Source: a virus
Lineage: Duplodnaviria > Heunggongvirae > Uroviricota > Caudoviricetes
IMG/VR virus record: IMGVR_UViG_2541047097_000025
Length of the DNA stretch: 5,553 nucleotides
Reading direction: 5' to 3' (one strand)
Position 1 is the first letter of the stretch. Each line of letters opens with the position of its first letter. Under the pieces are notes generated by a model, which ran no database searches, was not told where the DNA came from, and was given only the letters and a program-made list of their open reading frames with translations. Positions 1 to 1,886 of the stretch are shown one piece after another. The position numbers and the translations under genes were made by a program.

Positions 1-579
1 TTAGCCATTAAGTTTAACTGCCAGACCTGCGACATATTCCCCTTGATAACGAGCAATAGACAGTTCTTCCTGGCTGGGCTGGCGTGAACCGTCACCGCCT
101 GCGATGGTGGTTGCGCCGTACGGCGTACCGCCGCGAACCTGTGAAACGTCAAATAATTCCTGCGCTGCGTAGCCAATGGGGACAATCACCATGCCGTGAT
201 GCGCAAGGGTCGTCCAGGTGGATGTGATGGTTTGTTCCTGACCGCCGCCAGTACCGGTGGAACTAAAGACGCTCGCCAGTTTTCCGTATAGTGCGCCGGA
301 AGCCCACAGGCCGCCCGTCTGGTCGAGGAAGGTACGCATTTGACCGGACATGTTGCCAAAGCGGGTAGGTGTACCAAAAATAATGGCGTCGTAATTGGCC
401 AGTTCTTGCGGGGTTGCAACCGGTGCAGTTTGCGTTTTACCGCCTGCTTTTTCAAATAATTGCGGCGACATGGTTTCCGGTACACGCTTAACGACAACTT
501 CAGCGCCATCCACTTTGCTTGCACCCTCAGCGACTGCGCGTGCCATCGTTTCAACATGTCTAAGGATATGGTTTATCAT
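1..579 (-). CDS. wrbA: WrbA NAD(P)H:quinone oxidoreductase, 3' portion fused to a phage-derived 5' end (prophage-disrupted, chimeric)
   Basis: The translation from about residue 9 onward ([29 protein letters not shown]...[13 protein letters not shown]) matches E. coli WrbA as I recall it. The first 8 residues (MINHILRH) replace the native N-terminus (recalled as MAKVLVLYYSMYGH), which carries the flavodoxin-type FMN-binding loop. The stop codon is at 1-3 and the ATG at 577-579 has no Shine-Dalgarno (SD) sequence. Confidence 0.88.
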
Positions 580-580
580 T
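540..580. other. Approximate prophage-host junction (attL/attR core region) inside wrbA
   Basis: The WrbA-like translation diverges from the recalled native sequence just upstream of the HVETMA codons (about 550-560), and the integrase stop lies at 576-578. Exact core boundaries cannot be fixed without an uninterrupted wrbA reference. Confidence 0.5.
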
Positions 581-1886
581 TTGAAAAATATAATTTTATT
601 TCATCCTCCTGGTCACTTTGGGGCACGTCTGGGGCACGGGCATTAAGGACATTATTCAACATGGCAACTTGAGTCACGCTGCACTCAGGCATCCATGCAC
701 CATAAACATTGTAGACCATGCTGGCGCTGGAGTGCCCCATCTGTGATGCAATAAATGTCGGGTTTGCTCCGGAAGATAAAGCCCAGCACGCATAGGTATG
801 GCGTGACTGATACGCTTTACGGGATCGGATACCCGCTCTTTTTATTGCTGAATCCCATGTCGCTCCGATGGAGCTTACCGCGTAGTTAATACCCGCCTTG
901 TGATTCTTGCGAACGATTTGCGGACAGAAAACAAAAGTGCACTCGTGCAAAATTGTTCTTCCGTACTCGCGTAATTGAACAGTGATCTGATGCTGCCTGC
1001 TAAGACGAGTAAGCATCGCCTGGTTTTTAAGTGCTTCAATTGCTGGTGCCAGAAGATGTATAACCCGGTTAGTGCCTGCGTCGGTCTTTGGTAGCGTAAA
1101 ATCACCTATTTTTGTAAAATTTCGTCGCACTGTTATCGTGCCAGCTTTCAGGTCGATATCCTCCCATGCAAGTGCGGCAATTTCACCGTGTCGCATCCCT
1201 GTAAAAACAGCCACTGTCCAGAGGTTTTTGGTCTGTTGATGATGGCAGGCATCAATGAGACGGCTAAACTCATCTCTGGTCAGTGGATCCGGCACTGGTT
1301 TTGATTTCCTCAGCGGTGTTATTGAATTAAACGGGTTTTTCTCCAGATACCCGTTTTCGGCGGCAAAGCTGAACATTCCGGCTGTTGTTGTCATGTAATA
1401 GTTCACTGTGGGTACGGTTCTTCCTTTTCGGGACGTGCTGGTTTTCCTGCTTCCCTTTTCCCCGGTCAGTAAATCTTTCCTGATAAACAGCAGATCTTCT
1501 TTTGTAATCGATGACGCCAGCCTGCCAGGACCAAGCCTCGGTAGCATATTTTTCATCACTGATTGATAACGATTTAAGGCGTTACTACCGATTTCCATTG
1601 CTTTCAGAGTAAGCCATTTCTGTGCCAGTTCACCGACGGTGATATCTTTTTTTACCAGGCCAAATAGCTTCAGGTTAGGTGAGTCAGGGAATCGATCGGC
1701 ATAATCAAACGTTCCTGTTCTGATTGCAAAGCAGACCGAAGCCCTTAACTCACCAGCGATCTTTCTGTTTTTCGGTGTATCGGGCACGCGAAGATTTTCG
1801 CGCACTCGTTTACCCCTGTACTTAAACGTTATTCGGAGTTTTCCTCCGTGATTTTCAACGCCGGCTGGATAGGCTGAATTCGCCAT
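576..1886 (-). CDS. int: Phage tyrosine integrase with DUF3596-like N-terminal arm-binding domain
   Basis: The N-terminus ([18 protein letters not shown]...[14 protein letters not shown]) is typical of DUF3596-type integrases. The C-terminal catalytic region has the tyrosine-recombinase pattern (TGMRHGE, SRHTYA, MGHSS, VYNVYG). I place the start at ATG 1884-1886, which has a strong SD (AGGAGG, 1891-1896 on the complement) 4 nt upstream, rather than at the GTG at 1910 used by the ORF track. The stop TGA at 576-578 overlaps the chimeric wrbA ATG as ATGA. Confidence 0.9.

What the first reader, a model, noticed from the sequence alone, without database searches (positions are those of the whole stretch)
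1..1886. Integration into wrbA creates a chimeric wrbA reading frame coupled to the integrase stop
The wrbA 3' portion continues in frame into phage sequence, giving a new 8-residue N-terminus (MINHILRH) whose ATG (577-579) overlaps the int stop (576-578) as ATGA. The FMN-binding loop region of native WrbA is missing, so the fusion is probably non-functional as a quinone oxidoreductase. It could still be translated by coupling to int, because its own start has no SD. The native wrbA promoter is displaced to the far side of the prophage. wrbA is the established insertion site of Stx2-converting phages such as 933W and Sp5, which makes this junction epidemiologically relevant.
Basis: partly seen in the sequence, partly recalled or inferred. 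Interest (0 to 1): 0.55.

Follow-up and report, generated by a model that had tools for sequence, protein, structure and literature searches.

The report
Stx-phage junction inside wrbA gene
This is the well-known left end of a 933W/Sp5-type Shiga-toxin prophage inserted in the E. coli wrbA gene, which leaves a headless wrbA remnant that reads on from eight or nine phage codons; it is real but ordinary and already in the databases.

Summary
Window 1-5408 is identical to E. coli O157:H7 Sakai (prophage Sp5) and EDL933 (933W). A three-way alignment of the window, empty K-12 wrbA (attB) and circular phage attP places the crossover in the 7-bp core TTGAAAC (window 548-554). This is the att site already annotated for VT2-Sakai.

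The remnant ORF (579..1, minus strand, 192 aa) starts at an ATG that overlaps the int stop as ATGA (579-576). It has no Shine-Dalgarno pairing. It lacks the first 13 native residues, which include strand beta-1 and the flavodoxin-type phosphate loop.

The native promoter, SD and codons 1-14 sit about 62 kb away at the other prophage end in Sakai. There they encode a 20-aa stub.

It also records a constitutive int start site (window 1908). The remnant is therefore transcribed. Translation by coupling is plausible but untested.

NCBI's PGAP pipeline names the chimera as an intact quinone oxidoreductase, while the curated Sakai record calls it a pseudogene. An in-frame ATG arises in 44% of shuffles.

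Verdict: already known, low interest.

The parts
1..547 (-). Host-derived 3' part of wrbA (native codons 18-198 plus stop)
   Evidence: 95% protein identity to K-12 WrbA overall, and identical from chimera residue 10 except two polymorphisms. DNA is collinear with K-12 attB. 5418 of 5426 E. coli genomes match this part.
548..554 (.). 7-bp att core / crossover region. It reads TTGAAAC on the minus strand and lies in native wrbA codons 15-17
   Evidence: This is the only stretch shared by attB, attP and the window, with phage-specific G on one side and host-specific G on the other. The reciprocal junction in Sakai has host A and phage C. It is the same 7 bp annotated as the attachment site in AP000422 and AP005154.
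555..579 (-). Phage-derived 5' end of the chimeric ORF: ATG 579-577, codons 1-8 and the first base of codon 9
   Evidence: Identical to attP of phage Stx2 II, where the same ATG opens only a 14-codon [17 protein letters not shown]. In-frame TGA lies 8 codons upstream.
1..579 (-). Chimeric wrbA' ORF, 192 aa. It equals RefSeq WP_000607020.1 in EDL933 and pseudogene ECs_5704 in Sakai
   Evidence: NCBIfam WrbA equivalog gives 322 bits against a cut-off of 141, but covers only profile positions 13-199 of 200. The exact sequence occurs on at least 1000 public contigs.
576..579 (-). ATGA overlap of the wrbA' start with the int stop
   Evidence: Read directly from the sequence.
576..1886 (-). int, a lambda-type tyrosine integrase of 436 aa
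   Evidence: Pfam Arm-DNA-bind_2 (residues 7-70) and Phage_integrase (residues 202-395). Annotated as integrase in Sakai, EDL933 and 933W. The mapped TSS at 1908 excludes the GTG at 1910 as the start.
619..638 (+). Tandem TGGGGCACG repeats, candidate Int arm-type sites of the P' arm, lying inside the int 3' end. A third, inverted copy (TGGGGCACT) lies at 731-739
   Evidence: In attP of Stx2 II, copies flank the core at about -170, +70, +80 and +180. The assignment as arm sites is an inference and the enrichment is only modest.
700..713 (-). Published transcription start for wrbA' (window 701, minor 700) with a -10 TACAAT at 713-708
   Evidence: Cappable-seq atlas of EDL933, PMC10469882 Tables S5/S7. 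TSS 1333637/1333636 is assigned to EDL933_RS06605. Relative read scores are 8-14 in exponential phase and 41-48 in stationary LB/acid. The -10 was read from the sequence.
1908..1908 (-). Published int transcription start (22-nt leader)
   Evidence: PMC10469882 Table S7. The main gTSS of EDL933_RS06610 is at 1334844 in all 8 conditions, with scores 47-241.
1939..2238 (-). xis (excisionase, DUF1233)
   Evidence: Pfam DUF1233, E = 1e-30. Annotated as excisionase.

Best explanation
The window holds the int-proximal junction (attL, B-O-P' in lambda terms) of a 933W/Sp5-type lambdoid prophage. Its tyrosine integrase recombined attP with the 7-bp core TTGAAAC in codons 15-17 of the chromosomal wrbA gene.

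Shown here:
- The exchange point is mapped.
- The reciprocal junction in Sakai carries the native wrbA promoter, SD and 14 codons, fused to 6 further codons (core plus phage) and a stop.
- The 3' 183 codons of wrbA now follow 8 phage codons whose ATG overlaps the int TGA.
- That start has no SD.
- The first 12-13 positions of the WrbA family profile are lost. These correspond to strand beta-1 and the flavodoxin-type FMN-phosphate loop.

Shown by others: in EDL933 the remnant is transcribed from a start site inside int (window 701/700, stronger in stationary phase). int itself is transcribed in all eight conditions tested, and there is no terminator-like site between int and wrbA'.

Inferred:
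- wrbA is functionally inactivated in the lysogen and is restored by precise excision.
- The 192-aa ORF is a transcribed gene remnant. Any product would be made at low level, by termination-reinitiation at AUGA or by SD-independent initiation on the A/U-rich leader.
- Such a product would not bind FMN or act as a quinone oxidoreductase.
- The in-frame ATG and the ATGA overlap are by-products of the int C-terminal codons (AAA TGA) lying 22 nt from the core, not a selected device.
For: - Identity to Sakai and EDL933: window 1-5408 is identical to both. Full-length identity for 1-1950 was also found.
- Annotations: Sp5, int, xis and wrbA pseudogene in Sakai, and the corresponding RefSeq genes in EDL933.
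- Annotated att site: AP000422 positions 555-561 correspond to window 548-554.
- Exchange point: the attL/attB/attP alignment, the reciprocal junction and the protein alignment.
- Integrase domains.
- Loss of N-terminal profile positions and 34 bits of score. Flavodoxin_1 drops from 40.7 to 21.8 bits, below its cut-off of 25.
- Tyr12 lines the WrbA active site (PMC10302398).
- No SD pairing.
- No minus-strand terminator-like site between 2249 and 1.
- TSS data.
- Excision of 933W restores A at chimera position 25. A preprint reports this as a 'V9I mutation'.
- 44% of shuffles give an in-frame ATG.
- The closest int relatives sit beside a 5'-truncated DUF72 gene without any stop/start overlap.
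Against: - Nothing contradicts the junction assignment.
- The part about little or no functional product is not demonstrated. The ORF is intact in all 216 genomes that carry the junction (98.9-100% identity). That may only reflect recent common descent.
- It is transcribed, with stationary-phase bias reminiscent of native wrbA.
- ATGA overlaps are a classic coupling arrangement.
- The start region is comparatively unstructured: mean P(unpaired) is 0.58 against 0.47 for the leader as a whole.
- No proteomic or ribosome-profiling value for this ORF could be found.
- The structural consequence of losing beta-1 rests on knowledge of the flavodoxin fold, not on a model. The single-sequence AlphaFold run was uninformative.
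Confidence: 0.85

Rival explanations
1. The chimera is a real, translated protein. Ribosomes finishing int, or a short int-frame ORF that starts at the AUG 10 nt into the 701 transcript (MPECSV...YFSK*), reinitiate at the overlapping AUGA. This yields an N-terminally remodelled WrbA under prophage control. The protein would have some retained or new role, and the arrangement would be maintained by selection.
For: - The ATGA overlap and the absence of an SD are the textbook setting for termination-reinitiation.
- int is transcribed in all 8 conditions, and a second start site lies 121-122 nt upstream of the ATG.
- No terminator lies between the two genes.
- The ORF is intact in every genome carrying the junction.
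- PGAP accepts it as a WrbA equivalog.
Against: - 13 residues are missing, including the central beta-strand and the phosphate-binding loop. The first 12 profile positions carry 34 bits.
- The phage segment does not mimic the lost residues.
- In the free phage the same ATG opens only a 14-codon ORF.
- An in-frame ATG is expected in 44% of shuffles.
- int relatives that target a DUF72 gene show no such overlap.
- The lineage is too young and uniform for ORF intactness to mean selection.
- No protein-level evidence was found.
Confidence: 0.12
2. The promoter inside int and the read-through from int matter mainly for the downstream gene yccJ. yccJ is normally co-transcribed with wrbA. On this view the open wrbA' frame is only a spacer that ribosomes may cross, limiting polarity.
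For: - yccJ follows wrbA' by 20 nt on the same strand.
- yccJ is transcribed and translated in Sakai (Ribo-seq supplement of PMC5597208).
- Its native upstream promoter has been removed by the insertion.
Against: - yccJ has its own mapped start site at EDL933 1332940 (window 4), 24 nt upstream of its ATG. It therefore does not need transcription from within the prophage.
- No data link yccJ levels to the prophage.
Confidence: 0.1
3. The junction is an assembly chimera or a divergent natural wrbA allele rather than a prophage insertion.
For: None beyond the abrupt change of sequence at 555.
Against: - The same junction is present in 216 independently finished genomes.
- The reciprocal junction is present 62 kb away in Sakai.
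- attP matches exactly.
- 5128 genomes have the uninterrupted site.
Confidence: 0.01

Closest known systems
Prophage Sp5 (VT2-Sakai) and BP-933W inserted in wrbA of E. coli O157:H7
   Same: The DNA is identical over window 1-5408. It has the same int, xis, 7-bp att core and chimeric ORF.
   Different: The last 145 bases of the window (5409-5553) differ. The 5' part of the Ea22-like gene is of the 'c+f' repeat arrangement seen in phage Stx2 II region II. The source prophage is therefore a mosaic relative, and its stx content is unknown.
Lambda attL (B-O-P') with int next to the junction
   Same: A tyrosine integrase with an N-terminal arm-binding domain. xis lies upstream of int. There is a short core shared by attP and attB, and repeated candidate arm sites lie on both sides of the core.
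   Different: Lambda integrates between genes (gal/bio), whereas this phage integrates inside a coding sequence. Here the P' arm overlaps the 3' end of int, and the int stop is only 22 nt from the core.
Gene-restoring integrations such as e14 in icd, or phages in tRNA genes
   Same: The att core lies inside a gene.
   Different: Those elements carry a copy of the displaced gene end, so the product keeps its length and function (PMC3603311). Here the phage sits at the 5' end, supplies unrelated codons and removes 13 conserved residues. The same paper lists wrbA among genes disrupted by phage integration.
Stx1 prophage in mlrA (yehV) and other 'disrupt and restore on excision' insertions
   Same: A host stress or biofilm gene is split by a Stx prophage and regains its native form on precise excision. 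For wrbA, the restored site is visible in the irradiation-adapted EDL933 clones.
   Different: No regulatory use of excision has been shown for wrbA.
Related integrases (67-70% identity) next to 5'-truncated DUF72/YecE-like genes in other Enterobacteriaceae
   Same: The style is the same: int points into the 3' remainder of a gene whose first ~21 profile positions are missing.
   Different: The target gene is different. There is a 29-nt gap and no stop/start overlap, so the ATGA arrangement is not a family trait.

Membership tests
Lambda-type prophage attL junction (tyrosine integrase) | Adjacent integrase with tyrosine-recombinase catalytic domain and arm-binding domain | tested here: met
   Pfam Phage_integrase gives 64 bits and Arm-DNA-bind_2 gives 90.6 bits.
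Lambda-type prophage attL junction (tyrosine integrase) | Short core identical in attP, attB and the junction, with flanks switching from host to phage | tested here: met
   The core is TTGAAAC, window 548-554. The diagnostic flanking bases are G/G in the window and A/C at the far junction.
Lambda-type prophage attL junction (tyrosine integrase) | Reciprocal junction at the other prophage end and an empty site in other strains | tested here: met
   The Sakai far junction was found. 5128 genomes have an uninterrupted site. The far junction of the window's own source strain is outside the window.
Lambda-type prophage attL junction (tyrosine integrase) | Arm-type Int binding sites flanking the core | tested here: inconclusive
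   TGGGGCACG-like copies lie at about -170, +70, +80 and +180 of the attP core. However, 11 of 200 shuffles reach the same count over 10 kb. No binding data are available.
WrbA / type IV NAD(P)H:quinone oxidoreductase | Score above the curated equivalog cut-off | tested here: met
   NF002999 gives 322 bits against a cut-off of 141. TIGR01755 gives 317 bits against 132.5.
WrbA / type IV NAD(P)H:quinone oxidoreductase | Complete flavodoxin-like core including strand beta-1 and the FMN-phosphate loop (native residues 2-14) | tested here: not met
   The profile is matched only from position 13 of 200. The native protein matches from position 1 and scores 34 bits more. Flavodoxin_1 is matched from position 9 and falls below its cut-off. 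The alignment shows that MAKVLVLYYSMYG is absent.
WrbA / type IV NAD(P)H:quinone oxidoreductase | FMN binding and NADH:quinone reductase activity | not testable with these tools
   Needs purified protein.
Translationally coupled gene pair | Overlapping stop and start (ATGA), with a weak or absent SD on the distal gene | tested here: met
Translationally coupled gene pair | Both ORFs on one transcript | tested here: inconclusive
   The int TSS at 1908 is seen in all conditions, and no terminator-like site lies before wrbA'. Read-through itself was not measured. A second TSS at 701 gives a transcript without the int start.
Translationally coupled gene pair | Distal translation depends on proximal translation | not testable with these tools
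   Needs reporter fusions or ribosome profiling.
Gene-restoring (duplicating) phage integration | The phage carries a copy of the displaced gene segment, so that the product is unchanged | tested here: not met
   Phage codons MINHILRHV share only H-x-E-T-M context with the native protein. Thirteen residues are lost.

The most novel reading that the evidence does not exclude
The prophage does not merely break wrbA but rewires it. The last 183 codons, and possibly yccJ, would be placed under a phage-borne, stationary-phase-biased promoter inside int and under the constitutive int promoter. The remnant would be translated by termination-reinitiation at AUGA into an FMN-loop-less WrbA variant with a lysogen-specific role. 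Candidate Int arm sites overlap the -35 region of the internal promoter, so Int occupancy could tune it.
Probability: 0.05. Interest if true: 0.5.

Novelty: already known. Interest (0 to 1): 0.15.

Why it matters
Occupancy of wrbA is a standard typing marker for Stx2a prophages. It was occupied in 61.6% of 346 O157 strains in PMC8309913.

The practical value of this check is for annotation. RefSeq/PGAP names the 192-aa chimera as an intact NAD(P)H:quinone oxidoreductase in over 200 finished genomes and on at least 1000 contigs. The curated Sakai record calls it a pseudogene.

Using the chimera as reference has already led one preprint to report the restored attB after prophage loss as a 'G25>A, V9I mutation' of wrbA. 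Pan-genome and phenotype studies that count wrbA as present in such lysogens are probably wrong about function.

If the remnant were translated and active, that would be a modest curiosity about prophage-host gene fusion.

Tried and rejected
- Conservation test. I looked for diverged relatives of the integrase to see whether the in-frame ATG/ATGA is conserved. 75 loci were fetched. None lies next to wrbA, so no cross-clade test is possible. The closest ones target a DUF72 gene instead.
- Protein-level evidence. The only O157 proteome paper listing WrbA used strain 933D, which is cured of 933W, so it is uninformative.
- Supplements. The supplements of two EDL933 translatome papers and the Sakai Ribo-seq paper hold no entry for this ORF. 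A search for the guessed old locus tag Z1423 found nothing.
- Structure prediction. AlphaFold2 on the chimera without an alignment gave mean pLDDT 35.7 and is unusable. I ran no further search on building an alignment, because a model cannot decide function.
- Papers not held. The original 933W sequence paper (looked up as PMC93574) and the WrbA crystal-structure papers are not in the library. The residue-level FMN contacts rest on general knowledge of the flavodoxin fold plus (Tyr12 in the active site).
- Possible second prophage type. Genome H112, whose match stopped at the core, is only a frameshift-ridden assembly with an empty site.
- Consensus promoter scan. It gives chance-level hits (3 found against 2.9 expected) and misses both experimentally mapped starts.
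- Rfam. No match in the window.
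Full report
**What is in the window**

The minus strand carries, in order:
- xis (2238/2223..1939)
- int (1886..576)
- an ORF of 192 codons (579..1) whose product is WrbA-like from residue 10 onward

Window 576-579 reads TCAT, which is ATGA on the coding strand. The first ATG of the WrbA-like ORF therefore shares two bases with the int TGA.

**Where it comes from**

Bases 1-1950 are 100% identical to many finished O157:H7 genomes, including Sakai and EDL933. The whole stretch 1-5408 is identical to both strains, after which the window diverges.

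In Sakai the region is annotated as the left end of prophage Sp5, with integrase ECs_1160. The 579-bp ORF is annotated there as wrbA pseudogene ECs_5704. In the PGAP annotation of EDL933 the same ORF is an ordinary CDS named NAD(P)H:quinone oxidoreductase, WP_000607020.1.

Phage records 933W, VT2-Sakai, Min27 and the PA series begin at or just before window 548. AP000422 annotates a 7-bp attachment site that corresponds to window 548-554.

**Exact crossover**

I aligned three sequences:
- the window junction
- the empty site of K-12 MG1655
- the attP region of the circularly permuted phage Stx2 II

On the coding strand they read:
- attB: GGACAT-A-TTGAAAC-G-ATGGCA
- attP: AGACAT-G-TTGAAAC-C-ATGAAG
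- window: AGACAT-G-TTGAAAC-G-ATGGCA

Strand exchange therefore occurred inside TTGAAAC. The reciprocal product is present in Sakai at the far end of Sp5 as GGACAT-A-TTGAAAC-C-ATGAAGCATTAA. It is preceded by the native wrbA leader and SD, and it encodes MAKVLVLYYSMYGHIETMKH-stop.

The phage contributes codons 1-8 and the first base of codon 9 of the chimera. His8 equals native His14 and Val9 replaces Ile15. Native residues 1-13 (MAKVLVLYYSMYG) are lost. In the free phage the same ATG opens only a 14-codon frame.

**Frequency**

| Count (of 5426 complete E. coli genomes) | What they show |
|---|---|
| 5128 | attB region uninterrupted |
| 216 | this junction at 98.9-100% identity |

Published PCR surveys report wrbA occupied in 61.6% of 346 O157 strains (PMC8309913). 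A comparative study lists wrbA among core genes disrupted by phage integration (PMC3603311).

**Is the product likely to work?**

| Profile | Native K-12 WrbA | Chimera | Cut-off |
|---|---|---|---|
| NCBIfam WrbA equivalog, positions matched (of 200) | 1-199 | 13-199 | n/a |
| NCBIfam WrbA equivalog, bits | 356.7 | 322.4 | 141 |
| Pfam Flavodoxin_1, first position matched | 1 | 9 | n/a |
| Pfam Flavodoxin_1, bits | 40.7 | 21.8 | 25 |

The chimera still scores far above the NCBIfam cut-off, which explains the PGAP name.

In flavodoxin-like proteins the first strand is the central strand of the sheet. The loop that follows it binds the FMN phosphate. This is established knowledge of the fold, not tested here. 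Tyr12, one of the lost residues, lines the WrbA active site in docking and MD work based on structure 4YQE (PMC10302398).

Solved E. coli WrbA structures exist (2R96, 3B6I, 3ZHO and others). They align with the chimera only from chimera residue 6 (about residue 11-12 of the solved chains).

A single-sequence AlphaFold run was uninformative, with pLDDT 35.7. Loss of quinone reductase function is therefore a strong inference, not a demonstration.

**Expression**

*Translation start.* The 25 nt upstream of ATG 579 have no anti-SD complementarity (+0.4 kcal/mol). The comparison values are -10.3 for int, -8.5 for native wrbA and -5.5 to -11 at ten other candidate start codons tested in the window. 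The nearest AGGAGG lies 24 nt upstream, inside int.

*Terminators.* No terminator-like hairpin lies on the minus strand between xis and the window's end.

*Mapped start sites.* A published Cappable-seq atlas of EDL933 covers this locus (PMC10469882). EDL933 coordinate equals window coordinate plus 1332936.

| Gene | EDL933 position | Window position | Conditions detected | Relative read scores |
|---|---|---|---|---|
| EDL933_RS06605 (wrbA') | 1333637, and 1333636 in one condition | 701, 700 | 6 of 8 | 8-14 in exponential cultures; 48 in stationary LB and 41 in stationary acid |
| integrase | 1334844 | 1908 | 8 of 8 | 47-241 |
| yccJ | 1332940 | 4 | not tabulated here | not tabulated here |

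The wrbA' start lies 122/121 nt upstream of the chimeric ATG, inside int. The RegulonDB start for native wrbA is 50 nt upstream of its ATG.

A good -10 hexamer, TACAAT, lies at 713-708, with C at -13 and no recognisable -35. The int start site shows that ATG 1886, not GTG 1910, is the int start.

The remnant is thus transcribed, both potentially by read-through from int and from its own promoter. On the 701 transcript full-length int cannot be translated. Only a short int-frame ORF (MPECSV...YFSK-stop, AUG at +10) could deliver ribosomes to the AUGA. That step is speculation.

No ribosome-profiling or proteomic value for the ORF could be found.

**Is the arrangement more than chance?**

- In 44% of dinucleotide shuffles of the phage arm the wrbA frame stays open back to an ATG.
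- The A of the ATG is simply the third base of the last int codon (AAA).
- The integrase's relatives at up to 70% identity in other Enterobacteriaceae never sit beside wrbA.
- The closest relatives sit 29 nt upstream of a DUF72 (YecE-like) gene that lacks its first ~21 profile positions. This is the same style of insertion, but without a stop/start overlap.
- The junction is nearly invariant among carriers, so ORF intactness says nothing about selection.

I conclude that the chimeric frame and the ATGA overlap are incidental consequences of where the int stop lies relative to the core.

**Other anatomy**

- Two tandem TGGGGCACG copies (619-627 and 630-638) and an inverted TGGGGCACT (731-739) lie in the int 3' end.
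- In attP a further copy lies about 170 bp on the other side of the core.
- These are plausible Int arm sites, but the enrichment is modest.
- The inverted copy overlaps the -35 region of the internal promoter.

**Comparison with what is known and verdict**

This is the documented wrbA junction of Sp5/933W-type Stx prophages. The core, the split gene and even the chimeric ORF are already in public records. It works like any lambda-type attL.

It is not a gene-restoring integration of the icd/tRNA kind, because the phage does not replace what it removes.

Three points are mildly useful:
- the annotation conflict between PGAP (intact enzyme) and curators (pseudogene)
- the consequent misreading of prophage excision as a wrbA point mutation in a preprint
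- the link to mapped transcription starts

Novelty: already known. Interest: low.

Noticed in passing
window 4973-5553 (divergence from Sakai/EDL933 begins at 5409): The 5' part of the Ea22-like gene is not the Sp5/933W version. It is 97.6% like the 'arrangement c+f, region II' repeat copy of phage Stx2 II. No complete E. coli genome in the collection has this stretch contiguous with the rest, so the source prophage is a recombinant at the Ea22 repeat.
   Followed up: partly
window 700-713, minus strand: A published EDL933 transcription start lies inside int, 121-122 nt upstream of the chimeric ATG. It has a TACAAT -10 and a stationary-phase bias. The consensus promoter scan did not pick it up.
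   Followed up: yes
window 1908, minus strand: The published int start site is seen in all eight growth conditions, which implies constitutive int transcription in the lysogen. It excludes the GTG at 1910 used as the int start in the old VT2-Sakai annotation (583-1917 of AP000422).
   Followed up: partly
window 619-638 and 731-739; L005 3929-4291: TGGGGCACG/T copies flank the att core in attP at about -170, +70, +80 and +180. They are candidate Int arm-type sites, located inside the int coding sequence.
   Followed up: partly
window 550-558 and 655-663: The 9-mer TTCAACATG, which covers most of the att core, recurs 105 bp away inside int. This may be chance.
   Followed up: no
window 2249-2268, minus strand: A strong terminator-like hairpin (AAGCCGCC-TGAT-GGCGGTTT followed by a T run) lies just upstream of xis, between the 103-aa ORF (2620..2309) and xis.
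   Followed up: no
protein cluster of window:1-579:-: The 90%-identity cluster that holds the chimera has a 436-aa integrase as its representative and mixes Int and WrbA proteins. It is presumably bridged by some fused int-wrbA' gene call in a draft assembly.
   Followed up: no
L059 (NZ_JPLE01000249.1, 455 bp): A 455-bp contig of a Xanthomonas pisi assembly is 100% identical to int residues 1-105. This is most likely E. coli/Stx-phage contamination.
   Followed up: no
L007-L014, about 29 nt after the int stop: Integrases 67-70% identical to this one in Pseudescherichia, Enterobacter, Citrobacter, Kluyvera and Trabulsiella are followed by a 5'-truncated DUF72 (YecE-like) gene. This suggests a sister clade that targets yecE, another known Stx-phage site.
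   Followed up: partly
bioRxiv 10.1101/2022.08.08.503262 versus window 555: The 'wrbA G25>A (V9I) mutation' reported after loss of 933W is the native attB base restored by excision. The chimeric ORF had been used as the reference.
   Followed up: yes
window 2957-3580: Identical DNA is annotated as one 207-aa gene in Sakai, but as a DUF551 gene plus a partial pseudogene in the PGAP annotation of EDL933.
   Followed up: no
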